From the NCBI GenBank assembly GCA_964406675.1, contig CAYOSP010000001.1:133440-194739 (forward strand): a DNA stretch of 61,300 nucleotides, written 5' to 3'. This DNA comes from an uncultured Eubacteriales bacterium. GTDB taxonomy: Bacteria; Actinomycetota; Coriobacteriia; Anaerosomatales; JAUVQN01. A program made the translations under genes and the position numbers. The notes beneath the pieces are model-generated. The model saw nothing but the letters and a program-made list of their open reading frames with translations. It was not told the origin of the DNA and searched no databases. Below are positions 17,804-38,639 of the stretch, in pieces; position 1 is the first letter of the stretch, and every line of letters starts with the position of its first letter.

Positions 17804-20440
17804 TCAGGCGAGCAGGGCGTAGACGAAGAGCAGGAGTACCGCTACCACGATCCCCACGTTGAGCCCTATGTCCCGGGCGTAGCGCTGGACCGCCAACCGG
17901 AGAGCCGTCCGACTCTCATCGGAGACGTGCTCCTCGATCATCCAGGGTATGCGCTCCTGGGTGACGGACTCGCCGACCACGCGTCCCAGATCCGAGACCC
18001 ATCGGCCGAGCCGCTCCACCATCGTCAGGTTCTCGTGATGATACGCGCTCAGTCGGCTGACCTCCGCGGGGACGACTTCCCGGGAATCCGGCTGCCACGT
18101 GGGGATCGACCGTCGGATGCGCCGGTCGAAGCGCTCCTCGCTCATGATGACGTTCATCTGGTGCGAGACGGAGCGGATGACGTTCTCGCCTTTCATCCGC
18201 GGCTCCGCGTACTCGAGCGCTACCCGCGCGATGCGTTCCCTGAACTCGCTCAGTTCCGGCATCACCCTCGACATCGCCGCCTCGATGGGCTCCACGCGGC
18301 CACGTTTCACGAGTCTGGTGAGGACGTCCATCCGCTCTCGGAAGAGCCGTCCGGCCATGTACGACGACAGGTCGCGCACCGAGTCGATGAACATGCGGCG
18401 CTCCTCGTCGTGCATGTCCTCGCGGTTCTGAGCGACGTGCAGGGCGTCGGTCACGGCCTTCCTCACGGTGGCGTGTCGCTCGTCGTCCATCACGATGTAC
18501 GCGGAATCGATGAAGCGCTGGTGTCTCAGCCCGGAGGCGCCGGTGCCGAGCGTGACGATGGAGCGCCGCCAGGACCGCGAGGCGTGGTCGAGGCCGGCAC
18601 GCAGGGTGGTGCGCGTGTCGTTGACGGCTACGGACGCGGCGTCGAGGTACGCGGCGTAGCCGCGATCCATCGCGACGGCGCCCTGCCGCGATAGTCTCGC
18701 GCCCTGCCGGTAGAAGTAGTCCACGGAGAACCACTCCGGGAAGTGGGCATGGAACGCCCCCGTCTTGATGCCGACCACCACGATGGTGATCCCGATCCCG
18801 AACGCCCAGGCCACGGAGGCGAGGTTCTCGCCGGTGAACAGGACGAACTCCTCGAGGATGTCGCCGTGCAGCCCCCAGACGTGCAGGCCGGGCACGAAGA
18901 TCCCCTCGAGGAGGAGCTGCGGCCACAGTCCGAGCACCACCAGCGGGACGGCGAGGATCCCCATCGCCACGAGCATGCGCGGCGGCGCCTCTCGGACCTC
19001 GCCGAGGTCGGTCTTCTCCTTGCCGAGGAAGACGAAGAGGATGAGCTTGATGAAGGACGCGGCGGTCCCACCGCAGGTCACGATGTATATCTTCTCGGCG
19101 AAGGACAGCGCTCCCGCATGCCAGGCGGGGACCATCGCCTCGGCCGCGTGCGCGAGGTGCTCCGCGTGCTCGATCGATTCGACGAGCGCGTGATGGATGA
19201 GGCACTTGCTCACGAACCCGTTGAACAGCGGCACGCCGGTGATGCCGAACGCGGCGACGAGCGTGAAGATGAAGGTGAGGGGCATCTTCTTCCACAGACC
19301 GCCGAGCTTGTACATGTTGAGCTCGCGGGTCCGGAAGAACACCGCGCCCACCCCGAGGAAGAGCAGCCCCTTGAAGAGCGCGTGATTCACGATGTGGTAC
19401 AGCCCGCCGGCGAACCCCATGGCCCCGTGGGCGCCCAGGTATCCGGCGGCGCCGATCCCGGCCAGGATGAAGCCCATCTGGCTCACGCTGTGGTAGGCGA
19501 GCATGCGCTTCGCGTTCTCCTGCAGCAGCGCGAGCACCACGCCGACGAACATGGTCGCGATGCCGATCCACAGCACGGCGTGGCCGAGTTGGCCGGCGAA
19601 GTGCCACAACCCCTCGGAGAGCTCCTCGACCACCGGCGGGCGGAAGATCGCGGTGACGACGCGGAAGATCCCGTACGCGCCCGCCTTGATCATCACGCCG
19701 GAGAGCAGCGCGCTCGCCGGCGACGGCGCGACGGGATGCGCTTCGGGCAACCACACGTGCACCGGGAGCATGCCCGCCTTCACGCCGAACCCGAGGATCA
19801 TCAGCCCGGCCGCCGACCAGCGCATGACCTCGGCGGCCTCCTCGGCCCCGAACGGGCCGATCGTGCCGCCGGAGCCCATCGCGTATACGAGGAAGATGCC
19901 CGCCACCAGGCTGAACCCGCCGACCAGGTTCATCCACAGGTACTTCACCGAGGCCTTCTTCGCCTCGGGGGTCTCGGTGTGGACGACCATCATGTACGAG
20001 GTCAGGCCCAGCGCCTCGAAGAACAGGTAGAGCGTGATCAGGTCGCCGGCGAGCACGACCCCGAGGTTGGCCGCGAGCACGATCAGGTTGAACACGTGGT
20101 AGCGGTCGCGCTTCTTCTCGTGCTGCATGTAGTCGCCCGCGTACAGGGTGGCGAGCATCCACACGAACGAGGTGAACAGCGCGAAGAGCATCCCGAACGG
20201 GTCGACCTCGAAGGTGAGCTCGCCGAAGAGCCCGGGGAGCGTGCAGCCGATCCGGTGGTGCTCGGCGATCTGGGGGATGAGCGCTACCGCGCCGAGGAAG
20301 GTGATCGCCGTGACGACCGTGGCGTACCAGTCCCGCACCGTCTCCGAGAGACGGCCGAGGAACGGGACGAGGGCGGCGGCGAGCGCGGGCACCAGGACCA
20401 GCAGCGCGGGGAGCGGGCTGTATGCGAGGTGTCCTTCCAT
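17804..20440 (-). CDS. mrpA: NuoL/MrpA-N-terminal-like antiporter subunit with a ~290-aa hydrophilic insertion before the last TM helix (878 aa)
   Basis: Motif GVKAGMLPVHVWLPEAHPVAPSPASALLSGVMIKAG. About 15 TM helices up to residue ~560. A charged, helix-prone segment spans ~565-858. A terminal TM helix is GLNVGIVVAVLLLFVYALLA. GGAAGGAGGG lies 6 nt upstream of the ATG. Confidence 0.8.
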   Translation of the reverse strand: MEGHLAYSPLPALLVLVPALAAALVPFLGRLSETVRDWYATVVTAITFLGAVALIPQIAEHHRIGCTLPGLFGELTFEVDPFGMLFALFTSFVWMLATLYAGDYMQHEKKRDRYHVFNLIVLAANLGVVLAGDLITLYLFFEALGLTSYMMVVHTETPEAKKASVKYLWMNLVGGFSLVAGIFLVYAMGSGGTIGPFGAEEAAEVMRWSAAGLMILGFGVKAGMLPVHVWLPEAHPVAPSPASALLSGVMIKAGAYGIFRVVTAIFRPPVVEELSEGLWHFAGQLGHAVLWIGIATMFVGVVLALLQENAKRMLAYHSVSQMGFILAGIGAAGYLGAHGAMGFAGGLYHIVNHALFKGLLFLGVGAVFFRTRELNMYKLGGLWKKMPLTFIFTLVAAFGITGVPLFNGFVSKCLIHHALVESIEHAEHLAHAAEAMVPAWHAGALSFAEKIYIVTCGGTAASFIKLILFVFLGKEKTDLGEVREAPPRMLVAMGILAVPLVVLGLWPQLLLEGIFVPGLHVWGLHGDILEEFVLFTGENLASVAWAFGIGITIVVVGIKTGAFHAHFPEWFSVDYFYRQGARLSRQGAVAMDRGYAAYLDAASVAVNDTRTTLRAGLDHASRSWRRSIVTLGTGASGLRHQRFIDSAYIVMDDERHATVRKAVTDALHVAQNREDMHDEERRMFIDSVRDLSSYMAGRLFRERMDVLTRLVKRGRVEPIEAAMSRVMPELSEFRERIARVALEYAEPRMKGENVIRSVSHQMNVIMSEERFDRRIRRSIPTWQPDSREVVPAEVSRLSAYHHENLTMVERLGRWVSDLGRVVGESVTQERIPWMIEEHVSDESRTALRLAVQRYARDIGLNVGIVVAVLLLFVYALLA

Positions 20441-20469
20441 GCTGCGCCCTCCTTCCGGTCAGTCGTCCG

Positions 20470-22071
20470 TCACCCGATGACGGCCTCGGCCACCATCCGC
20501 GCGAGCGAGAGAGGCAGCCCCGGCAGCCAGGCGAGCACGCCCAGCAGGACCGTGATGATCGCGCCGGCGAGAGCCGGGACGAGCATCGAGGGAGGCGCCT
20601 CGAGCCGCCGCCGGCCGCCGCCGGGCGGCTCCTTCTCGCTCGCATCGCTCGCCGTGCCTGTCTCGCTCGTCTCGCCCGAGCCGCCCGAGCCGCGCGTCTC
20701 TTCCGCCTCGCTCGCTCCGCCCGGTGCGGTTGTCTCGCTCACCGCCGGACGCTTGAAGTATGCCGAGTACACGATCGGGAGGAGGTAGCCCGCCGCGAGC
20801 AGCGCTCCGAGCAGGAGCACGATGAGGTAGAGGGGCTGGCCCGCCTCCACGATCCCCATGCCCAGGTACCACTTGCTCACGAAGCCCGACAGCGGCGGCG
20901 TGCCGATCATCGCGAGTGAGGCGACGGTGAACGCCGCCATGGTGAGCGGCACCCGCTTGCCGATGCCCGCCATGCGGCTCACCTTGCGGATGCCGAGACG
21001 TTTGATGAAGATGCCGGCACAGAGGAACAGGGTGCCCTTCATGAACGCGTGGTTGGCGATGTGCACGAGCGAGCCCTGCGTCGCCTCCAGTCCGAGCAGG
21101 GCGGCTCCGAGCAGGACGTATCCCATCTGCGAGATCGTCGAGTACGCGAGTCTGCGCTTGATGTCGTCCTGGGTGAGCGCGATGATCGCCGCGAGCAGGA
21201 TGGTCGCCGCGGCGAGGTAGCCGAGCCAGCGGGTCACGTCGAGCTCCGCGAGCAGGCCGGCGCCGAACACGTGGTACAGCACTCGGAGGATGCCGAAGCT
21301 GCCCGCGGCCACCATCACGCCCGAGAGTACCGCCGAGAACGGCGCGGGCGCGGCCGGGTGAGCGTCCGGGACCCAGCCGTGCAGCGGCACGATCGCCGCC
21401 TTCACCCCGAAGCCGGCGACGAAGCACCAGAAGACGGCGATGAGTACGGTACGGCCGGCCTCGAGCGTGAGGAGCGTCCCTCCCCCGAAGTCACCGTTGC
21501 CGGCGATGAAGTACGTGATCAGGATGGCGAGCAGCACGAGTCCGCCGCCGATGAGGATGTACACGATGTACTTCGTGCCGGCGGCCATCGCCTCGCTCGT
21601 CTGCTCGTGGACGACCAGCGGGTACGTGAGGACCGAGAAGAGCTCGTAGAAGACGAGCAGGGTCAGCAGGTTGCCCGCGAACGCCACGCCCGCCGTCCAG
21701 GCGAGCGCCATCATGAGGAACGAGAAGTATCGCGCCTGCCGATGTTCGTCGGCCATATATCCGGACGAGTACGGGACCGCGAGCAGCCACATGAAGGCGA
21801 CGGTGAGCGCGAAGAGCACCCCCAGCGCGTCGGCGCGGAAGTCGAGCCAGATGCCGGGCGTGATCTGCACCAGTTGCAGGTGCGGGATCTCCCCGCCGAT
21901 CACGGGGGAGACCAACGCGACCACGCCGGCCGCGCACAGCGCGCAGATCGCCGTCAGCACGACGTCGCGCATCGTCCTGGACACGCGCGACATCGGCACG
22001 GTGAGCGCGGCGCCTGCCAGCGGCAGCGCCACCACCACCGGCATCACCCATGCCATGTACGACGTCGTCAC
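20470..22071 (-). CDS. mrpD: MrpD/NuoN-like antiporter subunit, third copy (533 aa)
   Basis: Motif GVKAAIVPLHGWVPDAHPAAPAPFSAVLSG. Polytopic, with a Ser/Thr/Glu/Gly-rich loop before the last helix. Confidence 0.85.
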   Translation of the reverse strand: MTTSYMAWVMPVVVALPLAGAALTVPMSRVSRTMRDVVLTAICALCAAGVVALVSPVIGGEIPHLQLVQITPGIWLDFRADALGVLFALTVAFMWLLAVPYSSGYMADEHRQARYFSFLMMALAWTAGVAFAGNLLTLLVFYELFSVLTYPLVVHEQTSEAMAAGTKYIVYILIGGGLVLLAILITYFIAGNGDFGGGTLLTLEAGRTVLIAVFWCFVAGFGVKAAIVPLHGWVPDAHPAAPAPFSAVLSGVMVAAGSFGILRVLYHVFGAGLLAELDVTRWLGYLAAATILLAAIIALTQDDIKRRLAYSTISQMGYVLLGAALLGLEATQGSLVHIANHAFMKGTLFLCAGIFIKRLGIRKVSRMAGIGKRVPLTMAAFTVASLAMIGTPPLSGFVSKWYLGMGIVEAGQPLYLIVLLLGALLAAGYLLPIVYSAYFKRPAVSETTAPGGASEAEETRGSGGSGETSETGTASDASEKEPPGGGRRRLEAPPSMLVPALAGAIITVLLGVLAWLPGLPLSLARMVAEAVIG

Positions 22072-22084
22072 GGCGGATCACCCC

Positions 22085-23560
22085 TCACATGCGGAAGACG
22101 AACTCGACGGCCGCCCTCGCCAGCGACAGCGGCAGCCCCGGCACTTCGGCGAAGCTGCCGAGGAGGATCACGTACACGGCGCAGACGACGGTGGGAATGA
22201 GCAGCGTCGGCCTCGCCTCGCGCATCTCGACGTGTGCGTCCGGGTCGGTCTTGAAGAACGCGAGGTAGACGATGGGCAGCCAGTAGGCCGCGTTCAGCAG
22301 CGAGCTGATCACCATCACCACCACGAAGATCGGCTGCTCGGCCTCGAGCGCCCCCAGCGACAGGTACCACTTGCTGATGAACCCCGAGAAGATGGGCAGG
22401 CCGATGAAGCTGAGTGCGGCGATCGTGAACGCGGTCATCGTCCAGGGCATCCGGTAGCCGATCCCCGCGAGCTCGTGCACGTTCGTCTTGCCGGTCGTGC
22501 GCTGTATGGCGCCCGCGACGAAGAACATGGTGATCTTCTGGAAGGCCTGGTTCGCGATGTGCACGATCGCGGCCAGGGCTGACAGCGGGGTGAGCAGCGC
22601 AGCGCCGAGCACGATGTAGGAGAGCTGCGAGATGGTCGAGTATGCGAGCCGGCGCTTGAGGTTGTCCTGCATGATCGCGATCACGGAGGCCGCCACGATG
22701 GTGAACCCGGCGAGGTAGGCGAGCGGCAGGCCCAGCCCGAGCTCGGAGAGCAGGTCGACGCCGAACACGTTGTAGATGATGCGCAGGATGCCGAACGCAC
22801 CCGCTTTGACCACCGCCACCGCATGTAGCAGCGCGCTCACCGGCGTGGGCGCCACCATCGCCGAGGGCAGCCATCCGTGCAGCGGCATGATGCCGGCCTT
22901 CACCCCGAAGCCCGCCATGAAGCAGACGAAGAGCACGGTCAGCATGCCGCTGCCGACGTCCATGGTGAGGATGCCGGGCTCGGCGAGGGTGAGCGTGCCG
23001 GCCGCCTGGAAGGTGATCGCCGTCCCGATGAGGATGAAGGCCCCGCCGGTGAGCGTGTACACGAGGTACTTGCGCCCCGCCTTCATCGCCTCGGGTGTCT
23101 CGTCGTGTATGACCAGCGGATACGTGCAGATGGTGAGCATCTCGTAGAAGAGCAGCAGCGTGAGCAGGTTCTCGGAGAAGGCCAGGCCGACGGTGGTCGA
23201 CACGCAGAGCGCGAAGAATCCGAAGAACCTCACCTTGGCGTGCTCGGGCTCCATGTAGCCGATGGCGTACACGGTGGTCAGCAGCCACAGCGTCGAGGAC
23301 ACGAGTGCGAAGAACATCCCCAGCGCGTCGGCACGGAACCCGAGACCGATGCCCGGGGTGAACTCGATGAGCCTGAACACGTAGACCGTGCCGTCCATCG
23401 CGCCCGGCAGCATGCTGATGACCACGGCGAACTTCACCAGCGCGGCGGTGAGACTCCAGAAACGCCGCCAGAACGGCCGCGCCCCGAAGCCGAACACGAG
23501 ACCGGCGCACGCCAGCGAGAGCAGCGGCGCGAGCATCGGTCGCAGGTCGTGGACCTCCAC
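22085..23560 (-). CDS. mrpD: MrpD/NuoN-like antiporter subunit, second copy (491 aa)
   Basis: Motif GVKAGIMPLHGWLPSAMVAPTPVSALLHAVAVVKAG. Polytopic. Confidence 0.85.
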   Translation of the reverse strand: MEVHDLRPMLAPLLSLACAGLVFGFGARPFWRRFWSLTAALVKFAVVISMLPGAMDGTVYVFRLIEFTPGIGLGFRADALGMFFALVSSTLWLLTTVYAIGYMEPEHAKVRFFGFFALCVSTTVGLAFSENLLTLLLFYEMLTICTYPLVIHDETPEAMKAGRKYLVYTLTGGAFILIGTAITFQAAGTLTLAEPGILTMDVGSGMLTVLFVCFMAGFGVKAGIMPLHGWLPSAMVAPTPVSALLHAVAVVKAGAFGILRIIYNVFGVDLLSELGLGLPLAYLAGFTIVAASVIAIMQDNLKRRLAYSTISQLSYIVLGAALLTPLSALAAIVHIANQAFQKITMFFVAGAIQRTTGKTNVHELAGIGYRMPWTMTAFTIAALSFIGLPIFSGFISKWYLSLGALEAEQPIFVVVMVISSLLNAAYWLPIVYLAFFKTDPDAHVEMREARPTLLIPTVVCAVYVILLGSFAEVPGLPLSLARAAVEFVFRM

Positions 23561-23563
23561 GGC

Positions 23564-25057
23564 TCAGCCCCCTATCGGCGCGAGCAGCGCGTTCACCGCA
23601 GGCTCGATGAAGCTCAGCGGTATCCGTCCGAACACGCCCATCACCAGGCACAGCGCGGCGAGCACGAGGATCGGGGCGAGCATGCTCCCCGGGACCTCGC
23701 GCACCGCCGCCATCTCCGAGGTGACCGGTTCCTTGAAGTAGAAGGCGTTCACGATGCGGATGTAGTAGACGAAGATGAGCAGAGCGCCGAAGACCAGGAC
23801 GAAGGCGAACAGCGGCTTGCCCGCCTCGATGGCTCCCAGCGTGATGTACCACTTGCAGAGGAAGCCCGCGGTCGGCGGTATGCCGACGATCGAGACCGCT
23901 CCGATCGCGATGGCGGCCGATGTGATCGGCATCGCCTTGCCGACCCCCTGCAGGTCCCGCAGTCTCCGGTGGCCGGTCTGGTGGATGATCGCGCCGGCGC
24001 CGAGGAAGAGCGTCGCCTTGATGAGTGCGTGGTTGAAGATGTGCACGCTCGCGCCGATGATGCTCAGTTGCGAGGCCAGCCCGAGTCCCATGAAGATGTA
24101 GCCGATGTTCGAGATGGTCGAGTAGGCGAGGATGAGCTTGAGGTCGTCCTGCACGATGGCGAATAGCGCGCCGATGATGATCGAGGCCGCGCCGAGCCAC
24201 GTGAGCGCGGTGTTCAGTCCGTCCATGTCCAGCACGCCGGACTGGTAGTACATCTGGTAGAGCCGCAGCATGCCGAGCACGCCGACCTTGACGACCAGTC
24301 CGGAGAGGATCGCGCTGACCGGGCTGGGCGCGATCGCGTGCGCGTCGGGCAACCAGACGTGCATCGGGAACAGTGCCGCCTTGACGCCGAACCCGAGGGT
24401 GAGGCCGGCGGCGGCGACCGCCGCCGGGGTGGCGGGCACGCCTCCGAGCCGTGCGGCGATGTCACCCATGTTGAGCGTGCCGGTGAGCGCGTAGAGGAAG
24501 CCGGTGCTGAAGAGGATCATCAGCGAGGAGACGGCACCCATGATCAGGTACTTGAACGCCGCGAGTTCGGCCACGCCCTTGCCGGTCACCGCCACGAGCG
24601 CGTAGCTGGAGAGCGAGAGGATCTCGACGAAGACGAAGAAGTTGAACAGGTCCCCGGTGACGATGACCCCGATCACGCCGCCGAGATCGAGGAGGACGAG
24701 CGAGTAGAAGTAGGGGACGCGCGCCTCGGGGATGGCGTGCGGCACGTAGCGCCGGGAGAACCACAGGGAGAGCAGGCCGATCAGGCACACCACTCCCACC
24801 GCGGAGGAGAACTCGTCGAAGCGCAACTCGATGCCGAACGGGGGCTCCCAGTCGCCCATCTCATAGGAGAAGGGGCCGTCGATCGCGACCTTCGCGATCA
24901 GGAATCCGCAGGCGACCGAGGCGAGCCCCATGACCGCCATCGCCCAACGCCAGGCGGTCTCGGCGCTGCGCCTGCCCACGATCGGGGCGACGGCGGCGCC
25001 CGCGAGCGGGAGCGCCACCGCCGCGATCAGCCACTGCGAGCTCAGCAGCGGCCCCAT
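23564..25057 (-). CDS. mrpD: MrpD/NuoN-like antiporter subunit, first copy (497 aa)
   Basis: Motif GVKAALFPMHVWLPDAHAIAPSPVSAILSGLVVKVG. The start lies 1 nt after the mrpC stop. Confidence 0.85.
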   Translation of the reverse strand: MGPLLSSQWLIAAVALPLAGAAVAPIVGRRSAETAWRWAMAVMGLASVACGFLIAKVAIDGPFSYEMGDWEPPFGIELRFDEFSSAVGVVCLIGLLSLWFSRRYVPHAIPEARVPYFYSLVLLDLGGVIGVIVTGDLFNFFVFVEILSLSSYALVAVTGKGVAELAAFKYLIMGAVSSLMILFSTGFLYALTGTLNMGDIAARLGGVPATPAAVAAAGLTLGFGVKAALFPMHVWLPDAHAIAPSPVSAILSGLVVKVGVLGMLRLYQMYYQSGVLDMDGLNTALTWLGAASIIIGALFAIVQDDLKLILAYSTISNIGYIFMGLGLASQLSIIGASVHIFNHALIKATLFLGAGAIIHQTGHRRLRDLQGVGKAMPITSAAIAIGAVSIVGIPPTAGFLCKWYITLGAIEAGKPLFAFVLVFGALLIFVYYIRIVNAFYFKEPVTSEMAAVREVPGSMLAPILVLAALCLVMGVFGRIPLSFIEPAVNALLAPIGG

Positions 25058-25058
25058 G

Positions 25059-25412
25059 TCACTCGGCCCCCCACAGCTCGTCCGACTCGAGCGTCCCGTA
25101 GCGCCGGTAGATGCGCACCATGAGGGCGAGAGCGAGCGAGGTCGTGCTCACCGCCACGACGATACCGGTGAGGATCAGCGCCTGCGGCAGCGGGTTGGCG
25201 AACGGGGCGGCGGCGCCCTCGCCGACGATCGGGGCGTCGCCGTCGGCGATCATGCCCGCCGCGATGATGAAGGCGAACACGGCGGTCTCCATGATGTTGA
25301 TCCCCATGAACTTCTTGATGAGGTTGTGCTTGGAGATGACCGTGTACAGCCCGATGAGGAACAGCACCACGGAGGCCACGTAGTCGAGGTTCATCCAGAG
25401 TCGCTCGATCAT
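25059..25412 (-). CDS. mrpC: MrpC/MnhC (NuoK-like) subunit (117 aa)
   Basis: MIERLWMNLDYVASVVLFLIGLYTVISKHNLIKKFMGINIMETAVFAFII... has three TM helices. There is an ATGA overlap with the upstream cistron. Confidence 0.85.
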   Translation of the reverse strand: MIERLWMNLDYVASVVLFLIGLYTVISKHNLIKKFMGINIMETAVFAFIIAAGMIADGDAPIVGEGAAAPFANPLPQALILTGIVVAVSTTSLALALMVRIYRRYGTLESDELWGAE

Positions 25413-26122
25413 GTGCGACCCTCCATCCGCCAGAACAGGGAGGCGACGATGGATCCGCCGCCGACGGCGATCCCCGCCTCGAGGACCAGCATCGCGAGTT
25501 CGCGGACCAGCTCGTAGTCCTCGGCGCGCGGGAGCTCCAGGTAGGAACCCAGCCACAGCAGACCGGATACGCCGACCACGAAGAAGGCGAGGACCGCGGC
25601 CGCGTGCAGCCAGGTCCGGACGGCGCGCGGGAGGAGTCTCGCGGCCTGGCGGCGGCCGAGGACGAGGCTCACCACGATGACGACCGAGCCGAGGACGGCG
25701 CCGCCCTGGAAGCCCCCTCCGGGAGTGAGGTGGCCGTGCATGACCAGGGAGATGGAGAACAGCACGATGAAGGGCGCCGTCAGGCGCACCACGAACGCGA
25801 GTACCGGACTGACGGGCATGGTCGGTTCGCCCGAGCCTTCGTCCTCGTCGACGGTCCTCGCGGCGAGTACCGCCATCACCGCGGCGAGCGCGGTGAAGAT
25901 GACGGTCACCTCGCCGTAGGTGTCGAAGGCGCGGTAGTTGAGGATGACGTCGGTGACGATGTTCGGGCCGCCCGCCTCCTCGGCGCCCTTCTCGAGGTAG
26001 CGAGGCACCACGTGGGTGTACGCGGGGGTGTCGGTGGCGCCGATCTCCGGCAGCTCGGCGACCGCGGCGAGCAGGGGGACCGCGGCGACGAGCAGCAGCG
26101 CGATGATCGAGGCGCGTCTCAA
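25409..26122 (-). CDS. mrpB: MrpB/MnhB-like subunit (fused MbhE+MbhF-like, ~237 aa)
   Basis: MnhB-domain motifs NIVTDVILNYRAFDTYGEVTV and HGHLTPGGGFQGGAVLG. The start is placed at TTG 26122, overlapping the upstream stop (TTGA), and is uncertain. Confidence 0.75.
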   Translation of the reverse strand: MRRASIIALLLVAAVPLLAAVAELPEIGATDTPAYTHVVPRYLEKGAEEAGGPNIVTDVILNYRAFDTYGEVTVIFTALAAVMAVLAARTVDEDEGSGEPTMPVSPVLAFVVRLTAPFIVLFSISLVMHGHLTPGGGFQGGAVLGSVVIVVSLVLGRRQAARLLPRAVRTWLHAAAVLAFFVVGVSGLLWLGSYLELPRAEDYELVRELAMLVLEAGIAVGGGSIVASLFWRMEGRT

Positions 26123-26361
26123 CGTTCTCGCCTCGTGGTGCGGGCTATCGCCACCAGGAACAGCACCGTGGTCACTCCCGCGCCGACCGCGGCCTCGGTG
26201 AGCGCCACGTCGGGTGCACCGCGGTGCTGCCACACGAGGCACATCAGGAGGCTGTACGCGGAGAAGATGATCGCCGCCGCGAGCAGGTCCTTGGTGCGCA
26301 CCACGGTGAGCGCCGCGATGATCAGCAGTGACAGCAGGACTACGTCGAACGCGCGGCTCAT
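26119..26361 (-). CDS. MrpA C-terminal / MbhD-like (DUF4040) small membrane subunit (80 aa)
   Basis: MSRAFDVVLLSLLIIAALTVVRTKDLLAAAIIFSAYSLLMCLVWQHRGAPDVALTEAAVGAG... The APDVALTEAxVG block is typical of MrpA-C/MbhD. AGGAGGG lies upstream of ATG 26361. Confidence 0.75.
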   Translation of the reverse strand: MSRAFDVVLLSLLIIAALTVVRTKDLLAAAIIFSAYSLLMCLVWQHRGAPDVALTEAAVGAGVTTVLFLVAIARTTRRER

Positions 26362-26747
26362 CGTGATCCCTCCTGTGTCGTGGGTGTCTCCGTCGTCGCG
26401 GAGGCAGTCGCGCCGGGAGCCGAGGCGGATCCCTTGCGCCAGGCCTTCAGCCCGCTCCGGTACGCGGCCCGTGCGAGCGCGTGCCCGGCGGTGGGGCTGG
26501 ATATGAACACGAACACGGCGAGAAGGATGATCTTGAGCGAGACCGCGTCCGGCCCGTGCGCCACCGCGAGCGCGAGCAGCATGGTGCCGGCGCCGAGCGT
26601 GTCGCACTTGGTCGCCGCATGCGTGCGCGAGTAGAAGTCGGGGAGTCGGAGCAACCCCAGCGTCCCCACGAGGAAGAAGAACGCTCCGATGGCCGCGAGC
26701 ACGATGGTGGCCGCCTGGACGACGGGGTTGTCCGCCCACCCGGTCAT
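26358..26747 (-). CDS. mrpG: MrpG/MnhG subunit (129 aa)
   Basis: LRLPDFYSRTHAATKCDTLGAG is the hallmark motif. There is an ATGA overlap with mrpF. Confidence 0.85.
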   Translation of the reverse strand: MTGWADNPVVQAATIVLAAIGAFFFLVGTLGLLRLPDFYSRTHAATKCDTLGAGTMLLALAVAHGPDAVSLKIILLAVFVFISSPTAGHALARAAYRSGLKAWRKGSASAPGATASATTETPTTQEGSR

Positions 26748-27040
26748 GTCCGCTCGCCCTCCCTCGGGCCCATGACGTCCTCGAGGCGCCCACTCTCGAG
26801 ATACCTCGACGCGGCGATCGTCAGCGCGAGGCTGAGGAGGGCGTACACGAACGCCACGTCCATGAACAACGAGCGATCGAAGGCGAACGACAGGAGCACC
26901 AGCACCACCAGGGTCTTGGTGGTCACGATGTTGACGGCGAGGATGCGGTCGACCACCGTGGGTCCGGCATACGCGCGGTACAGGCACAGCAGCGCGTTGA
27001 GCAAGAGGAAGATGGCGGCGCCCCAGAAGAACCAGCTCAT
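26744..27040 (-). CDS. mrpF: MrpF/MnhF subunit (98 aa)
   Basis: MSWFFWGAAIFLLLNALLCLYRAYAGPTVVDRILAVNIVTTKTLVVLVLL... Confidence 0.85.
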   Translation of the reverse strand: MSWFFWGAAIFLLLNALLCLYRAYAGPTVVDRILAVNIVTTKTLVVLVLLSFAFDRSLFMDVAFVYALLSLALTIAASRYLESGRLEDVMGPREGERT

Positions 27041-27549
27041 CCGGAGCCTCCTCGAGTCGCGTCCGCGCCGTGCTCGCCCGACTCGAACACCCGGGCGATG
27101 CGCCTCTCGAGCAGGTGCTCCTCGATCCCCCCTCGGAATTCGGGGCCCAGGCAGTGCACGAGCAGCGCATCCTCACCGAGGTCGACGGTGAGTGTCCCCG
27201 GCGTGAGGGTGATGGAGTTCGCGAGCGTGACCTTCGAGATATCCCGATGCAGGGTGGTGTGCGCCGTGACGACCTCCGGATCCACCGGCAGACGGGGATC
27301 GAGCACGATCTCGGCGACGTAGAGCGCGGCCTTGACCACCTCGGCGAGCAGCCAGGGCACGTACGCCACGAAACGGAGCGCCTCGCCCAAGCCGATATGC
27401 GGCAGGTCCTCACGCCAGAGCGCTCGGGACGCCCACACGGCGACCAGGACGGACAGCACGGCCCCCAGCGCCAGGTCCATCGGGTCCAGCGTGCCCGCGA
27501 GGAGCACCCAGAAGGTGAACAGCCCTATGGTCAACCACCAGGTACGCAC
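27037..27549 (-). CDS. mrpE: MrpE/MnhE subunit (170 aa)
   Basis: ...ANSITLTPGTLTVDL is the hallmark motif. GTG 27549 lies 1 nt after the stop of the GGDEF-like gene. Confidence 0.8.
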   Translation of the reverse strand: MRTWWLTIGLFTFWVLLAGTLDPMDLALGAVLSVLVAVWASRALWREDLPHIGLGEALRFVAYVPWLLAEVVKAALYVAEIVLDPRLPVDPEVVTAHTTLHRDISKVTLANSITLTPGTLTVDLGEDALLVHCLGPEFRGGIEEHLLERRIARVFESGEHGADATRGGSG

Positions 27550-27550
27550 G

Positions 27551-28468
27551 TCACGCGTCCCCCTTCTGGGGGGCTCCCCGCGGTACGTGCCGCGTGTCCG
27601 CGGCGGGTCGCGCGTCGGCCCTGGTGGCGGCGATCGAGCCGCGCCGCACCCGATCGCCGCCGTCTCGGGCCGCGCCACGTGCCGCCTCCAGCGCCGCGAG
27701 TACGAGTTGCTGCTCGTCCTCCCCCTCCTCCGGATACGAGGCGACACCCACGCTCGTCGTCAGCCGCACCACCGGCTCGAGCTCGTCTCCCTCGAACTCG
27801 GCGTCGCGCACCACACCCACCACGCGTTCCGCGGCGGTCGCGGCGCCCTCCATGTCGGTGAACGGGAGGATCAACGCGAATCCGTCGCCGTGGCGCGCGA
27901 GGACGTCGGTGTCGCGCACGGAGATCCGGATGACGTCGGCCAACCGAGCGGCGAGCATACCGGCGCGCTGGTGCCCGAAGCGCTCGTGATACGCGCTCAT
28001 GCCGTCGGCGCGCAGGATCATCACGGAGAGCGAAGTCTCGTATCGGTCGGCCCGGTGGGTCTCCTCGGTCAGGCGATCGAAGAGGCAGTCCTCCGTGTAT
28101 ACGCCCGTGACCGGATCGCGCACCGCGCACGCGCGCAACTCCCTCATGCGCGCGTCCCGTTTCGCGGCGTACGCGCCGACCGCGAGGCCGACGACCACGA
28201 AGACGGACAGGCCGAGCAGCACGGGGCCGGAGGGGGCCGAGCCCTGCAACTCGATGGAGAGCACCGAAGCGGCCGCGACGGCGAGCGCGGACGTGACGAG
28301 CGCCCCGGCGCCTCGGTGCGTGATGGCGGAGATGACGATCGGGATACCGAACAGCGGCCAGTACAGTTCGAGGTCCCCGGTGATGACGACCAACACCGCG
28401 ACGAACGCGAGGGTCGCCGCGACCGCCAGCCAACCCCGCAGGCCGATCCCTTCATGCACGGTTCGCAC
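27551..28468 (-). CDS. membrane protein with a degenerate GGDEF domain (GDGF in place of GG[D/E]EF; RxxD I-site-like motif retained), 305 aa
   Basis: About 4 TM helices span residues 12-100. The GGDEF fold follows: RDPVTGVYTEDCLFDRL ... SVMILRADGMSAYHERFGHQRAG ... RDTDVLARHGDGFALILP ... TTSVGVASYP. GTG start at 28468. Confidence 0.8.
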   Translation of the reverse strand: MRTVHEGIGLRGWLAVAATLAFVAVLVVITGDLELYWPLFGIPIVISAITHRGAGALVTSALAVAAASVLSIELQGSAPSGPVLLGLSVFVVVGLAVGAYAAKRDARMRELRACAVRDPVTGVYTEDCLFDRLTEETHRADRYETSLSVMILRADGMSAYHERFGHQRAGMLAARLADVIRISVRDTDVLARHGDGFALILPFTDMEGAATAAERVVGVVRDAEFEGDELEPVVRLTTSVGVASYPEEGEDEQQLVLAALEAARGAARDGGDRVRRGSIAATRADARPAADTRHVPRGAPQKGDA

Positions 28469-35104: not shown

Positions 35105-37249
35105 GTGACGCCGAGCACCACAGGAGCCCCCCCGCCGGGCGTCGAGCGATTCGTCAAGAGACTGCTGGTCGCGCTCAAGGCGGTGCGCCTGTACCCGCCC
35201 ACCAGCCGCATACCGCGCGACAGCGTCGAGGACGCCATCGCGAGCTTGCGTGAGCATCTCGAGCGTTCGCCGGAGATGCGTCTCGTGGTCACGAAGCACG
35301 CGCTGGAATACGCGGGGTCCCCCATCGACCCGGACCGGCCGGCCTTCCAGGAGTTCGCCCGCGAGTTCTACACGAGGCACATCGCCGAGGTGCGCTTCCA
35401 CTCCGGTACCACCCCGGACCAGTTGCTCGCCTTCCTCTCGGTGCTGGACGTCCCGGTCGAGTCCGTGGAGTCCGGAGAGGACGTGTCGGCGCGACTGTGG
35501 GACGCGGGTGTGGTGGACATCAGCGTGAACGTGACCACCACGCGCGTCATCGAACGGGTCGAGGAAGCGGGAGGCGACGGCTGGCCGCCGCCTCCCGAGC
35601 GGGTCGACGAGGCGATCTCCGGAGCACTGGGAGGCAGACCGGCGGAGCGCCGCCTGCTCCTGACCGTGCTCTCGGACAGGAACGCGATGAGCGGTTACCT
35701 CTCCGCGGTCGCCGACCGTCCCGGCCGACGGGCGGAGGCCTGGGTGGCCGGCCGGATGGAGTCGATCGTCCACGCGATCGAGGACGAGCCGGTCGAGGAG
35801 AGGGAGGCCCACCTGACCGATCTCGCCGAAGCGCTCGCGGGCCTGCCGGAGGAGCTGCGCGCTCGCGTGGTCCGGGACAGACTGCTCCCCGACGCGCGTC
35901 ACGACGAGGCCGTCGCGCAGGTCATCCGCACCATGGGGGTCGAGAAGGTGTGTCGGCTGCTCGCTGTCGGTTCGGAGGAAGGCCCCGCGGGCCGCGACGG
36001 ACTCGCCAGGGCGCTGCGCAACCTCATGCTGATCACCCTGCAGTCGCAGGGCGAGGTCACGGATATCGCGAGGGACTGCCTCGCCGGGTCGGGGGTGTCG
36101 TCCGAGGACATCGACGAGGTGATCGACGCGGCGACCCCGGAGCGTCTGCGGGGCGGGGGCGCGGTATCGGACGAGGGCCGCAGTCTGAGCCGGGTGCTCG
36201 AGCTCGTCGACGCGGCCGCCCGGCGGACGGGCGAGGTCGATCGCGAGGTCGAGGATCTGGCGCAGGAGGCCGCCGAGAGCATCACCGACGCGGACGTGCT
36301 GCACTCCCTGCTGGCCGTCGCGTGGCTCGAGCACCGCGAGGAGGAGTTCTTCTCGCTGATGGGCGTCATCCGTGACGGGATGGAGATCCTCATCGAGCGG
36401 CGGGAGTTCGTGGTGGCCGCGGATGCGGTGGAGCTCCTGACCGCGATCGCGAAGGACCCGGTCCGCGCGACGCCCCAACGCGAGAGCGCCCGCGATGCCC
36501 TGTCGCCGCTCATGGTGAAGCGGCGCATGCGGATGATCGTCGGCGCGATGCACGTGCACGATCGCGACACGGACGAGTACGCGGCGGCCCGGCGGCTGCT
36601 CGCCGGTCTGGGCGGCGAGGCTCTGGGTCCGCTGTTGGAGGTGCTGGCGGACGAGCCGGATCGGCGGACACGCAAGGCGCTCGTCGAGCTGGCTTCCGCC
36701 GTCGCCGACGAGCACGTCGAGGAGCTCGCCGAGCATCTCGGGGACGGGCGCTGGTACTTCGTGCGCAACGTCGTCACGATCCTCGGTTCCTCGCGGAGAT
36801 CCGAGGCGGCCCGATACCTCGAGCGCACCCTGCGCTACCCGGACGCGCGCGTGCGCCGCGAGACGATACGCGCCGCCGCGGGGCTCGGCGGCGCGATAGC
36901 GTGCGAGGTCCTGCGGGCGGCCCTCGCCGACGAGGACCCGCAGAACGTGCGACTCGCGGCGCGCTATCTGGGATCGATGGGCGATGCGGCCACGGTGCGG
37001 GCACTGGAGGAGGTCGCGCGAGGAGAGGGACGGGGCGCGCGCGGGACGGGTCCCCGTGTGGAGGCGATCGAGGCGCTGGGCCTCGTCGGCGACCGAGACA
37101 GCGCCGAGGTGCTCCGCAAGCTCACGCACGGGGGCCGGCTGCTCGGGCGACGGCGCTGGAAAGAGATCCGTGTGGCCGCGCGAAGCGCGCTCGAACGGCT
37201 GGAGACGACCGGACGCCGTGAGGAGGGGGATGATGACGCCCGCCGATAA
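35105..37249 (+). CDS. HEAT-repeat protein with an N-terminal domain paralogous to that of the downstream HD-GYP protein (714 aa)
   Basis: The C-terminal HEAT/PBS-lyase-like repeats include DPQNVRLAARYLGSMGDAATVRALEEVA and RVEAIEALGLVGDRDSAEVL. N-terminus: FVKRLLVALKAVRLYPPTSRIPRDSVEDAI. GTG 35105 follows GGAGGAAC. Confidence 0.8.
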   Translation: MTPSTTGAPPPGVERFVKRLLVALKAVRLYPPTSRIPRDSVEDAIASLREHLERSPEMRLVVTKHALEYAGSPIDPDRPAFQEFAREFYTRHIAEVRFHSGTTPDQLLAFLSVLDVPVESVESGEDVSARLWDAGVVDISVNVTTTRVIERVEEAGGDGWPPPPERVDEAISGALGGRPAERRLLLTVLSDRNAMSGYLSAVADRPGRRAEAWVAGRMESIVHAIEDEPVEEREAHLTDLAEALAGLPEELRARVVRDRLLPDARHDEAVAQVIRTMGVEKVCRLLAVGSEEGPAGRDGLARALRNLMLITLQSQGEVTDIARDCLAGSGVSSEDIDEVIDAATPERLRGGGAVSDEGRSLSRVLELVDAAARRTGEVDREVEDLAQEAAESITDADVLHSLLAVAWLEHREEEFFSLMGVIRDGMEILIERREFVVAADAVELLTAIAKDPVRATPQRESARDALSPLMVKRRMRMIVGAMHVHDRDTDEYAAARRLLAGLGGEALGPLLEVLADEPDRRTRKALVELASAVADEHVEELAEHLGDGRWYFVRNVVTILGSSRRSEAARYLERTLRYPDARVRRETIRAAAGLGGAIACEVLRAALADEDPQNVRLAARYLGSMGDAATVRALEEVARGEGRGARGTGPRVEAIEALGLVGDRDSAEVLRKLTHGGRLLGRRRWKEIRVAARSALERLETTGRREEGDDDARR

Positions 37250-38639
37250 GGGAGAGGGCCCCGTCTTCTCCGCCGCACAGATGCGTGAGGCGCGCATGCT
37301 GCTCGCGAGGTTCTCCGCCGCGCGCAAGGCGTCGCGCTTCTATCCTCCCGGGCACCCCGCGGTCGGGCAGAGCGTCGACGAACTCATGGAGTCGGTCCGG
37401 AGCATCCACTCCGAGGAGCTGGACGTCCCTCTCGTCTTCTACGAGGACGAATTGCTGCTCGGCGAGCAGTTCCTATCGGAGGCGAGCGTCCATTTCGACC
37501 AGCTGATCCGGGACATGACCGCCATCGGCGCGGGGAGCATCACGTTCAGGAGGGGCCTGGCGGCGGATGAGCTCGGCCGCGCGGTCCGCGTGCTCAGTCG
37601 CGACCCGGTCGAGGTGGAGGAGGCCGGGGGGCTCGGACGCCTGCTCGAGGGCGAGGATCTGCCGCACGTGACGGTCGCCACGGTCGAGGTGTGGAAGCCG
37701 CGCGAAGCCGCCGACGGGCACGACAGGGAGGCGGCGCGCCGCACGTACTCGGAGGGGGTGGACCTCCTCCGCGAGCTCGAGCTCGCGATGCGTCGGGCGG
37801 ACGGCGGCTTCCCCGCGCACACCAGGGCGGTGGCGCGCGGCTTGGTGGACAACGTCCTGCACAACCGCGGGGCGATGATCGAGTTCGCCGGACTGCGGGA
37901 CTACGACGAGTACACCTTCTATCACTCGGTGAACGTGGCGATCCTCTCGATCGCGCTGGGAGCGCACATCACCTCGGAACGGCGCTTCCTCACGTCGCTC
38001 GGGGCCGGGGCCCTCATGCACGATATCGGTAAGATGGCGGTCGGTCCGGACATACTGAACAAGACAGGACCCTTGACAGAGCGGGAGTGGGAGCTCATGC
38101 GGCTGCATCCCGTATGGGGCGTCGAGGCCGCTCTCTCCATCCCCGGACTGGACCGATCCTCCCTGGTGATGATCCTCGAGCACCATATGCGATACGACGG
38201 ACAAGGCTATCCGCGCTACCCTGAAGCGGGTCGCGGGCAGCACCTGTCCAGCCGCATCGTGTCCGTGGCCGACGCGTTCGACGCGATGACGTCGGAGCGC
38301 GCCTACAGCACGGCGCGGCTGGCCGACGAGGCGATGGGCGTGCTCGTGCGGGACGCGGGTTCCGCCTACGACCCGCGACTCGTGCGCGGATTCCTGCGCG
38401 TGGTGGGCGTCTACCCGCCGCGCACGGTGGTGAGGCTGTCCACCGGAGAGACGGGGGTGGTGGTGGCGTCGAACGAGGAGTCGCCGGCCCGTCCCGTGGT
38501 GCGTCTCTTCGCCGACGAGGACGGCGAGCTGTCCGACCCCGTGGACGTGGACCTGGCGACCTGGGAGCATGAGGAGACGACCATCACGCGCAGTCTCGAC
38601 GCGACGACGCTCAACGTGGACCCCGACGCCTACATGTGA
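37230..38639 (+). CDS. HD-GYP domain protein (putative c-di-GMP phosphodiesterase) (469 aa)
   Basis: HSVNVAILS..., GALMHDIGK..., EHHMRYDGQGYP. ATG 37230 follows GAGGAGGGGG and overlaps the HEAT gene by 20 nt. Confidence 0.85.
   Translation: MMTPADKGEGPVFSAAQMREARMLLARFSAARKASRFYPPGHPAVGQSVDELMESVRSIHSEELDVPLVFYEDELLLGEQFLSEASVHFDQLIRDMTAIGAGSITFRRGLAADELGRAVRVLSRDPVEVEEAGGLGRLLEGEDLPHVTVATVEVWKPREAADGHDREAARRTYSEGVDLLRELELAMRRADGGFPAHTRAVARGLVDNVLHNRGAMIEFAGLRDYDEYTFYHSVNVAILSIALGAHITSERRFLTSLGAGALMHDIGKMAVGPDILNKTGPLTEREWELMRLHPVWGVEAALSIPGLDRSSLVMILEHHMRYDGQGYPRYPEAGRGQHLSSRIVSVADAFDAMTSERAYSTARLADEAMGVLVRDAGSAYDPRLVRGFLRVVGVYPPRTVVRLSTGETGVVVASNEESPARPVVRLFADEDGELSDPVDVDLATWEHEETTITRSLDATTLNVDPDAYM

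What the first reader, a model, noticed from the sequence alone, without database searches (positions are those of the whole stretch)
27551..28468. Degenerate GGDEF membrane protein as first, translationally coupled cistron of the Mrp-like operon
Seen: a 305-aa protein has ~4 N-terminal TM helices and a GGDEF-fold C-terminus. The signature reads R-H-G-D-G-F (27878-27892) instead of R-x-G-G-[DE]-E-F. The upstream metal and substrate region is also divergent (LRADGMSAYHERFGHQRAG). An RxxD motif (RDTD, residues 185-188) sits five residues upstream of the degenerate signature, at the position of the allosteric I-site. Its TGA (27551-27553) lies 1 nt from the mrpE GTG (27549). Known: GGDEF domains with a ruined A-site but an intact RxxD often act as c-di-GMP receptors rather than cyclases. 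I know of no Mrp operon that begins with such a gene. Inference: the protein may be a c-di-GMP-responsive regulatory or accessory subunit of the ion-translocating complex. An HD-GYP phosphodiesterase lies 9 kb away (37230-38639).
Basis: partly seen in the sequence, partly recalled or inferred. Interest (0 to 1): 0.62.

Follow-up and report, generated by a model that had tools for sequence, protein, structure and literature searches.

The report
Dead cyclase heading Mrp antiporter operon
The first gene of this sodium/proton-antiporter (Mrp) operon encodes a small membrane protein whose c-di-GMP-making site is destroyed but whose c-di-GMP-binding site is perfectly conserved, and this pairing recurs in 64 of 66 related operons, so it is probably an undescribed second-messenger sensor attached to an ion pump.

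Summary
Window 27551-28468 (-) encodes a 305-aa protein with four TM segments, a stalk helix and a canonical GGDEF fold. The GG[DE]EF signature reads G-DGF, one residue short, and the guanine-binding residues are gone. The RxxD I-site (R185/D188), the secondary RxxR site (R139/R142) and R215 are intact. The stop codon lies 1 nt from the mrpE start.

The organism is an uncultured Anaerosomatales (OPB41, Coriobacteriia) MAG.
- Of 146 species genomes in the order, 66 carry this mrpE type.
- 64 of those have the GGDEF gene directly upstream on the same strand, usually with an ATGA/GTGA overlap.
- No genome has the gene without the operon.
- In 48 distinct clade sequences the four I-site residues are invariant, while the A-site is among the most variable positions.
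- Relatives outside the clade keep an intact GGEEF, and two of four with readable context are also linked to the same operon type.

Best reading (about 0.5): a YdaK/PelD-like c-di-GMP receptor co-produced with a four-module Mrp antiporter. c-di-GMP binding and contact with Mrp are untested. I found no published description. Earlier notes of this scan reached the same reading. I class it as a new variant of a known kind.

The parts
27551..28468 (-). Gene for the 305-aa membrane protein with a degenerate GGDEF domain; stop TGA at 27551-27553; alternative GTG start at 28459
28163..28432 (-). N-terminal membrane module, residues 13-102: four hydrophobic segments, DUF4118/MASE1-like in relatives
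   Evidence: hydropathy and charge; AF2 helices 6-30, 33-73, 81-116; DUF4118 in 20 of 34 members and MASE1 in 16 of 34; the window's own protein has no hit
27656..28126 (-). GGDEF-fold domain, residues 115-271; the last TM helix runs into a stalk helix that ends at residue 116, just before the domain
   Evidence: (TM-score to target 0.9 and rmsd 1.7-1.9 A against 3IGN and 4URG)
28043..28054 (-). Secondary I-site RxxR (R139-A-D-R142); R142 aligns with WspR R198
   Evidence: numbering offset; 48 of 48 invariant; PMC2270323; same motif in YdaK, PMC5422440
27905..27916 (-). Primary I-site RxxD (R185-D-T-D188)
   Evidence: (48 of 48 invariant)
27878..27895 (-). Degenerate A-site R192-H-G-D-G-F197, in place of RxGG[DE]EF and one residue shorter
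   Evidence: (positions 193-196 rank 81-144 of 158 by entropy; three of the four rank 120-144)
27824..27826 (-). R215, at the position of PleD R390, the third primary I-site residue (PleD numbering from memory)
   Evidence: invariant in 37 sequences; 46 of 48
27773..27796 (-). Family-specific motif F225-E-G-D-E-L-E-P232 in the loop after helix 206-222; candidate docking surface
   Evidence: F, E, G, D and P invariant; present in 4 of 4 out-clade members linked to Mrp, degraded in 2 of 2 unlinked members
27547..27565 (-). Coupling junction: SD-like AAGGGGGA (27558-27565), TGA stop (27551-27553), 1 nt, mrpE GTG (27547-27549)
   Evidence: (orthologous junctions: 27 of 33 ATGA/GTGA, 4 TGATG)
27037..27549 (-). 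mrpE (MNHE, PF01899)
17804..27040 (-). Rest of the operon: mrpF, mrpG, MbhE/MnhB-type gene, mrpC, three mrpD-type genes, and an 878-aa MrpA/NuoL-like last gene

Best explanation
The gene encodes a catalytically dead, membrane-anchored GGDEF protein. It is the dedicated, translationally coupled first cistron of a stand-alone four-module Mrp cation/proton antiporter operon.

Proposed mechanism:
- Four TM helices anchor a dimer in the membrane, beside or in contact with the Mrp complex. MrpE is the most likely neighbour, because its start codon is coupled to this gene's stop.
- The last TM helix continues as a stalk into a GGDEF domain that can no longer bind or condense GTP.
- The domain keeps a complete c-di-GMP allosteric site: primary R185xxD188 plus R215, and secondary R139xxR142.
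- Intercalated c-di-GMP bridging these sites would change the stalk and TM arrangement and so tune antiporter activity or assembly. This would tie ion and pH homeostasis to the cell's c-di-GMP level.
- The layout parallels B. subtilis YdaK with the yda EPS machinery and PelD with the Pel synthase.

Shown here: the fold, the loss of the A-site, invariance of the I-site, the operon position and the conservation of linkage.
Inferred: c-di-GMP binding, dimerisation, contact with Mrp and the direction of any regulation.
For: 1. GGDEF fold: Pfam E 3.5e-21; AF2 mean pLDDT 90; Foldseek rmsd 1.7-1.9 A to isolated GGDEF domains.
2. Lost A-site and lost guanine-binding residues.
3. Conservation in 48 distinct clade sequences at 30-45% identity. 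Only 11 of 158 domain columns are invariant, and four of them are R139, R142, R185 and D188. R215 is kept in 46 of 48. Signature positions 193, 195 and 196 rank 120-144 of 158 in entropy.
4. R142 aligns with WspR R198 and R185/D188 with R242/D245. Mutating R198 or R242 abolishes c-di-GMP retention in WspR (PMC2270323). The same RxxR plus RxxD layout is needed for YdaK function (PMC5422440).
5. Linkage. 33 of 33 species loci have the order GGDEF-mrpE-F-G-B-C-D. In the order-wide census, 64 of 66 operon-bearing genomes have the gene directly upstream, and none of 80 operon-less genomes has it.
6. Junction: 27 of 33 overlap as ATGA/GTGA. No promoter or terminator was found between the two genes.
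7. The degenerate clade lies on one side of a well-supported branch (95/82), which fits a single old loss followed by long retention.
8. The genome has at least 8 proteins with intact GG[DE]EF and an intact HD-GYP, so the ligand is plausibly present.
Against: - There are no biochemical data. Binding, dimerisation and Mrp contact are all inferred.
- RxxD and the other Arg residues are also invariant in the intact-GGEEF relatives, where they would serve product inhibition. Part of the conservation could therefore be inherited or structural.
- Two genomes of one genus (G141, G142) keep the operon without the gene, so it is not essential for Mrp.
- The window's own N-terminal domain matches no Pfam family.
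- AF2 draws TM2 and TM3 as one long helix.
- No transcript data could be obtained.
Confidence: 0.5

Rival explanations
1. Sensor or scaffold rather than receptor. The DUF4118/MASE1-like membrane module reads the state of the antiporter or an ionic or membrane signal. The dead GGDEF domain passes this on through protein-protein contact with active cyclases or phosphodiesterases (local signalling). The I-site would serve as a docking element, as in GcbC-LapD, and Mrp itself would not be regulated.
For: - Relatives with intact DxDxFKxFND and RYGGEEF motifs head or abut the same operon type (P0037; P0029). The ancestral role was therefore signal production next to Mrp, not reception.
- 20 of 34 family members match the KdpD-type sensor domain DUF4118.
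- PMC5422440 cites work showing that I-sites promote cyclase-receptor contacts.
Against: - After loss of catalysis there is no output domain.
- Strict translational coupling to mrpE and complete dependence on the operon fit a stoichiometric partner of Mrp better than a free signalling hub.
- No cyclase or phosphodiesterase gene is conserved next to the operon.
Confidence: 0.2
2. c-di-GMP-independent accessory or assembly subunit. The GGDEF fold is retained only as a cytoplasmic structural module, and the conserved Arg/Asp residues and FEGDxLEP bind Mrp subunits or lipids rather than a nucleotide.
For: - FEGDxLEP is as invariant as the I-site. Among out-clade members it tracks Mrp linkage: 4 of 4 linked members have it and 2 of 2 unlinked members do not.
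- The gene is tightly coupled to mrpE.
Against: - The invariant residues are exactly those that contact c-di-GMP in WspR and YdaK, with the same spacing.
- Their joint invariance beside a freely drifting A-site is hard to explain by fold stability.
- The operon can exist without the gene.
Confidence: 0.2
3. Residual enzyme: the domain still makes c-di-GMP or another cyclic dinucleotide despite the unusual signature.
For: Some non-canonical signatures such as AGDEF retain activity (PMC3974145, listed). D155, at the position of the metal-binding Asp, is kept in the window's protein.
Against: - The signature has a one-residue deletion and lacks the catalytic acidic pair.
- The Asn at the guanine-binding position is replaced in all 48 clade members, and the Asp position holds Asp in only 24 of 48 (Gly in the window's protein).
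- The signature differs in almost every genus: GPTQF, EDGLF, DSALF, KDETF and others. That pattern indicates no selection for catalysis.
Confidence: 0.03

Closest known systems
Bacillus subtilis YdaK (degenerate GGDEF c-di-GMP receptor of the ydaJKLMN EPS operon; PMC5422440)
   Same: - About 300 aa, with four N-terminal TM helices and one degenerate GGDEF domain.
- Primary RxxD five residues before the dead signature.
- Secondary RxxR about 45 residues upstream (YdaK R157/R160 and R202/D205; here R139/R142 and R185/D188).
- Encoded inside the operon of the membrane machine it serves.
   Different: - The target is a Mrp cation/proton antiporter, not a polysaccharide synthase.
- The gene is translationally coupled to mrpE.
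- It carries the family-specific FEGDxLEP motif.
- Homology beyond the generic GGDEF fold was not tested, because no YdaK sequence was at hand.
PelD (Pseudomonas aeruginosa Pel polysaccharide synthase c-di-GMP receptor)
   Same: A membrane-anchored protein with a degenerate GGDEF domain. From general knowledge, PelD binds c-di-GMP at an RxxD I-site and is a subunit of the complex it activates.
   Different: - PelD has a GAF domain between the TM region and the GGDEF domain. Here the last TM helix leads straight into the GGDEF domain.
- A profile of this family does not hit any PelD chain in the PDB at E <= 1, while ordinary active cyclases score down to 1e-34.
- It therefore works like PelD but is not a member of that family.
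Active membrane diguanylate cyclases with product inhibition (WspR, PleD, GcbC, SiaD)
   Same: These are the closest in sequence and fold. They share I-site residues R198, R242 and D245 (WspR numbering). Sister-lineage members of this family still carry GGEEF.
   Different: The A-site is destroyed and the guanine-binding Asn and Asp are lost, so synthesis is not expected.
Stand-alone group-3 Mrp of Pyrococcus furiosus (Haja and Adams 2021, PMC8415708); gene order mrpEFGBB'CD as given in earlier scan note e1-5084285, not read here
   Same: An E-F-G-B-C-D gene order with no redox module. That antiporter uses sodium as coupling ion for cytoplasmic pH control (abstract).
   Different: No GGDEF gene is described for that operon. 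The operon here has four antiporter-like subunits and the extra first cistron.
Amt-GGDEF sensor transporters (PDB 8QPF, 8QJ3, titled 'Ammonium transporter')
   Same: A precedent for a transport protein wired directly to a GGDEF domain. These chains are hit by the family profile at 3e-23.
   Different: There the GGDEF domain is fused to the transporter. Here it is a separate dead-enzyme polypeptide.

Membership tests
GGDEF domain (Pfam PF00990) | Profile match above the gathering score, and the fold | tested here: met
   76.1 bits against a cut-off of 23.8. AF2 model plus Foldseek give TM-score to target 0.9 against 3IGN and 4URG.
Active diguanylate cyclase | GG[DE]EF signature with catalytic acidic residues | tested here: not met
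   RHG-DGF with a one-residue deletion. None of the 48 clade sequences has GG[DE]EF.
Active diguanylate cyclase | Guanine-binding Asn and Asp (PleD N335 and D344; numbering from memory) and the DxD metal site | tested here: not met
   Asn is replaced by His161 and Asp by Gly170. D155 is kept in the window's protein but varies in the clade (20 D, 12 E, others).
I-site c-di-GMP receptor of the degenerate-GGDEF type (YdaK/PelD functional class) | RxxD five residues upstream of the signature position | tested here: met
   R185-D-T-D188; 48 of 48 invariant.
I-site c-di-GMP receptor of the degenerate-GGDEF type (YdaK/PelD functional class) | Secondary I-site arginine(s) (WspR R198; YdaK RxxR) | tested here: met
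   R139xxR142; R142 aligns with WspR R198; 48 of 48 invariant.
I-site c-di-GMP receptor of the degenerate-GGDEF type (YdaK/PelD functional class) | Measured c-di-GMP binding | not testable with these tools
   Needs DRaCALA, ITC or MST on the purified domain.
I-site c-di-GMP receptor of the degenerate-GGDEF type (YdaK/PelD functional class) | Encoded with the machine it controls | tested here: met
   64 of 66 operon-bearing genomes have it directly upstream of mrpE; 0 of 80 operon-less genomes have it.
PelD family | TM-GAF-GGDEF architecture and sequence relatedness to PelD | tested here: not met
   No GAF hit. No PelD chain appears among the PDB hits of the family profile at E <= 1.
DUF4118 / MASE1 membrane sensor domains | Profile match of the N-terminal TM module | tested here: inconclusive
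   20 of 34 relatives hit DUF4118 (best E 3.7e-07) and 16 of 34 hit MASE1 (best E 1.8e-05). The window's own protein hits neither at E <= 0.1.
Mrp antiporter subunit | Physical presence in the purified complex | not testable with these tools
   Only operon membership and translational coupling are shown.

The most novel reading that the evidence does not exclude
A previously unrecognised family of small 4TM-GGDEF proteins, marked by an invariant FEGDxLEP loop, wires c-di-GMP signalling directly to a four-module Mrp antiporter related to complex I.
- Members with an intact GGEEF (P0037, P0029) would act as antiporter-coupled local c-di-GMP sources.
- The Anaerosomatales clade would have converted the same protein into a pure receptor that gates or tunes ion translocation.

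I found no published case of cyclic-dinucleotide control of a Mrp or complex-I-type ion-translocating machine, so this would be the first I know of.
Probability: 0.35. Interest if true: 0.8.

Novelty: new variant of a known kind. Interest (0 to 1): 0.6.

Why it matters
Mrp antiporters are the ancestors of the membrane arm of respiratory complex I and its relatives. The Mrp papers I searched and read describe no dedicated regulatory subunit and no second-messenger input. Cyclic di-AMP is the nucleotide usually tied to ion homeostasis, while c-di-GMP is tied to motility, adhesion and polysaccharide export (general knowledge).

A conserved c-di-GMP receptor co-translated with MrpE would extend c-di-GMP control to ion and pH homeostasis. 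It would also give a genetic handle on how a Mrp-type machine can be switched. The system is compact: one small gene, four candidate binding residues and a heterologously expressible operon. That makes it directly testable.

The family also offers a natural series from active cyclase to dead receptor, both attached to the same partner machine.

Tried and rejected
- Word-indexed homologue search found only the protein itself plus generic GGDEF proteins. The exhaustive HMMER search was needed to find the family.
- The search for related loci with the broad alignment A2 failed for lack of a conserved stretch. The narrower alignment A3 worked.
- c-di-GMP or other riboswitch in the 348-nt gap upstream of the gene: no Rfam match at E <= 1.
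- Sigma-70 promoter or intrinsic terminator between the GGDEF gene and mrpE, or in the upstream gap: none. The single terminator-like hit lies at the mrpE/mrpF border and is within the shuffle expectation.
- GGDEF-MrpE fusion proteins: the longer hits checked are GAF-GGDEF or plain GGDEF proteins, not fusions.
- PelD membership: rejected.
- The HD-GYP gene as part of the system: rejected as unsupported. It is intact, but CNNM, HEAT-repeat and other unrelated genes lie between it and the operon.
- Apparent exceptions to linkage: G116, G117 and G120 proved to be frameshift-laden long-read MAGs that still carry both genes. G141 and G142 are true losses.
- Pseudogene or neutral relic: rejected. 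One intact copy per genome is kept across 25 genera of the order.

Full report
**1. What is in the sequence**

The minus-strand ORF 27551-28468 translates to 305 aa from GTG 28468. The public protein collection holds the same product as 302 aa, starting at the next GTG.

Four hydrophobic segments (13-30, 36-50, 57-73, 83-102) are separated by short loops. The loop charges follow the positive-inside rule, which places both the N-terminus and the C-terminal domain in the cytoplasm.

Residues 115-271 match Pfam GGDEF (E 3.5e-21, 76 bits) and TIGR00254 (E 9.7e-25).

An AlphaFold2 model was built on 34 family sequences. It has mean pLDDT 90 and shows helices 6-30, 33-73 and 81-116. The last helix runs from the membrane as a stalk that ends at residue 116, just before the GGDEF domain. 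Foldseek superposes that domain on isolated GGDEF domains (3IGN, 4URG) at rmsd 1.7-1.9 A and TM-score 0.9. AF2 draws TM2 and TM3 as one 41-residue helix, so the count of three or four membrane passes is not fully settled. Hydropathy and charge favour four.

**2. Active site and allosteric site**

In the HMMER alignment to WspR:
- RYGGEEF corresponds to RHG-DGF, a one-residue deletion without the catalytic acidic pair.
- DVDYFKSYND corresponds to RADGMSAYHE. The Phe-Lys and the guanine-binding Asn are lost.
- GHVAGD corresponds to GHQRAG. The guanine-binding Asp is lost.

Catalysis is therefore not expected.

By contrast, R185-D-T-D188 aligns with WspR R242xxD245, and R142 aligns with WspR R198. 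R215 lies at the position I recall as PleD R390.

De et al. 2008 (PMC2270323) showed that R242 and R198 hold the intercalated c-di-GMP dimer. R242A and R198A proteins purify nucleotide-free.

**3. Position in the operon**

The TGA stop (27551-27553) is followed by one base and then the mrpE GTG (27549). An AAGGGGGA run lies 8 nt upstream of that GTG, inside the 3' end of the GGDEF gene.

Downstream on the same strand lie mrpE (MNHE), mrpF, mrpG, an MbhE/MnhB-type gene, mrpC, three mrpD-type genes and an 878-aa MrpA/NuoL-like gene. No redox module is present. The genes flanking the operon are an FKBP isomerase and a Moco oxidoreductase.

Consensus scans found no promoter or terminator between the GGDEF gene and mrpE. 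No Rfam family matches the 348-nt upstream gap.

**4. Organism**

The window is part of a 1.9-Mb, 70% G+C MAG. Record titles of related loci place the family in Actinomycetota, Coriobacteriia, order Anaerosomatales, formerly OPB41. A few records carry discordant NCBI labels (Eubacteriales, Myxococcota, Aeromicrobium), although their genes nest within the same clade.

**5. Is the pairing conserved?**

- Thirty-three species-representative loci with a full-length relative all show GGDEF-mrpE-F-G-B-C-D on one strand, as far as each contig reaches.
- A census of all 146 species genomes of the order found 62 with the family gene. In 61 of these the close mrpE type lies directly downstream.
- The apparent exceptions G116, G117 and G120 are long-read MAGs with frameshifts that still carry both genes side by side.
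- G141 and G142, one genus, have the operon preceded by a divergent transporter gene and no GGDEF gene.

In total, 66 genomes have the operon, 64 of them have the gene at its head, 80 have neither, and none has the gene alone.

At the junction, 27 of 33 loci overlap as ATGA/GTGA, 4 as TGATG and 1 has a 2-nt gap. The last locus (L052) is one of the frameshifted MAGs and shows the same ATGA at the junction.

**6. Pattern of selection**

In 48 distinct clade sequences (30-45% identity to the window's protein), only 11 of 158 domain columns are invariant. They include R139, R142, R185, D188 and F225-E-G-D228/P232. R215 is present in 46 of 48.

Three of the four central signature positions (193, 195, 196) rank 120-144 of 158 by entropy. 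Position 194 ranks 81 and keeps Gly in 29 of 48. Almost every genus has a different string there, such as GPTQF, EDGLF, GDNAF, DSALF and KDETF.

This is the signature of a released catalytic site beside a constrained allosteric site.

**7. Origin of the family**

The exhaustive search found about 35 full-length family clusters. In a maximum-likelihood tree, the 48 degenerate Anaerosomatales-type sequences lie on one side of a well-supported branch (95/82). All eight members with intact DxDxFKxFND and RYGGEEF motifs lie on the other side, together with four independently degenerate members.

Context of the out-clade members:

| Member | Signature | Context |
|---|---|---|
| P0037 | intact | Directly upstream of MNHE-MrpF-MrpG-MbhD-MbhE/MnhB-MrpC-MrpD-MrpD |
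| P0016 | degenerate | Heads the same operon type |
| P0014 | degenerate | Heads the same operon type |
| P0029 | intact | Convergent with the 3' end of a four-module operon |
| P0025 | intact | Not linked to Mrp |
| P0042 | intact | Not linked to Mrp |

The contigs of P0018 and P0034 were too short to show context.

The FEGD...P loop is present in the four linked members and degraded in the two unlinked ones. The sample is small. The association with this Mrp type therefore predates the loss of catalysis.

**8. Membrane module**

Twenty of 34 members match DUF4118, the KdpD-type 4TM sensor domain (best E 3.7e-07). Sixteen match MASE1. The window's own protein matches neither.

**9. Is the ligand available?**

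The genome encodes at least eight proteins with intact GG[DE]EF, seven of them with RxxD. It also encodes an intact HD-GYP protein at 37230-38639. All 41 genomes first surveyed contain 5-22 GGDEF matches.

**10. Comparison with known systems**

B. subtilis YdaK has four TM helices, a degenerate GGDEF domain (SDERI), RxxD five residues upstream and RxxR about 45 residues further up. It binds c-di-GMP in vitro, is encoded in the yda EPS operon and needs its RxxD to function (PMC5422440). The protein here has the same layout with a different partner machine.

PelD is functionally similar but has a GAF domain, and the family profile does not detect it.

By sequence the family sits among ordinary active cyclases such as WspR, GcbC, SiaD and PleD.

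Literature searches for Mrp together with GGDEF or c-di-GMP, the main Mrp review, and the paper describing the first Anaerosomatales isolates all lack any mention of such a gene.

Earlier notes of this scan on this operon and on two other genomes reached the same reading. I re-derived their claims independently here, and they are not independent evidence.

**11. Verdict**

Shown:
- The first cistron is a dead GGDEF protein with a complete I-site under strong selection.
- It is fixed at the head of the operon and translationally coupled to mrpE.

Most likely mechanism (about 0.5): a c-di-GMP receptor that modulates the antiporter.

Rivals:
- A sensor or scaffold role inherited from the cyclase ancestors (0.2).
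- A nucleotide-independent accessory subunit (0.2).
- Residual enzymatic activity (0.03).

Binding, contact with Mrp and co-transcription remain to be tested.

Noticed in passing
window 27773-27796 (residues 225-232): The FEGDxLEP loop is as invariant as the I-site across the clade. Among out-clade relatives it is present in the four Mrp-linked members and degraded in the two unlinked ones. It may be the Mrp-docking surface, but the sample is small.
   Followed up: partly
G141:C38 and G142:C172 (loci L061, L062): One genus of the order keeps the mrpE-led operon but has lost the GGDEF gene. A divergently oriented 492-aa membrane transporter gene precedes mrpE there. This is a natural knockout for comparison.
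   Followed up: partly
genome contig C5, ORF o2869 (302 aa; outside the window): A second small membrane protein with a degenerate GGDEF domain (LEDGRF) and an RxxD motif (RLVD) in the same genome. Its context was not examined.
   Followed up: no
window 13439-15571 (-): A 710-aa Na_H_Exchanger (CPA-type) protein with a C-terminal universal stress protein domain lies about 2 kb beyond the end of the Mrp operon. It is a second cation/proton exchanger with its own nucleotide-binding-type regulatory domain.
   Followed up: no
window 17804-20440 (-): The last operon gene is 878 aa. Its antiporter-like core matches MrpA/NuoL families only over about residues 1-560. A long charged C-terminal extension has no Pfam match. 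The L058 relative has a 939-aa counterpart.
   Followed up: no
window 27037-27549 (-), mrpE: The best NCBIfam match is NF009295 (PRK12652), a 368-aa subunit-E model in which the MnhE part occupies positions 178-324. Some MrpE proteins therefore carry a roughly 170-aa N-terminal extension at the position where this operon has a separate GGDEF gene. The nature of that extension was not examined.
   Followed up: no
loci L034, L046, L051, L052 (MFD long-read MAGs): The GGDEF and Mrp genes are broken into several frames. These are most likely indel errors of long-read assemblies rather than pseudogenes. They lower apparent gene presence in threshold-based censuses.
   Followed up: partly
loci L021, L024, L037, L039, L042, L048: Record titles name Eubacteriales, Myxococcota or Aeromicrobium, yet the genes nest within the Anaerosomatales clade and the same contigs are held as genomes of that order. 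The NCBI labels of these MAGs are probably wrong.
   Followed up: no
window 527-9433 (-): A single 2968-aa ORF with coding-type GC3 (0.95). It was not analysed here.
   Followed up: no
L056 and L059: The low-GC relatives share an upstream neighbourhood (YjbQ, histone-deacetylase-like gene, DUF2085) whether or not the Mrp operon follows. This suggests the operon was lost or moved in the L056 lineage while the active cyclase stayed.
   Followed up: no
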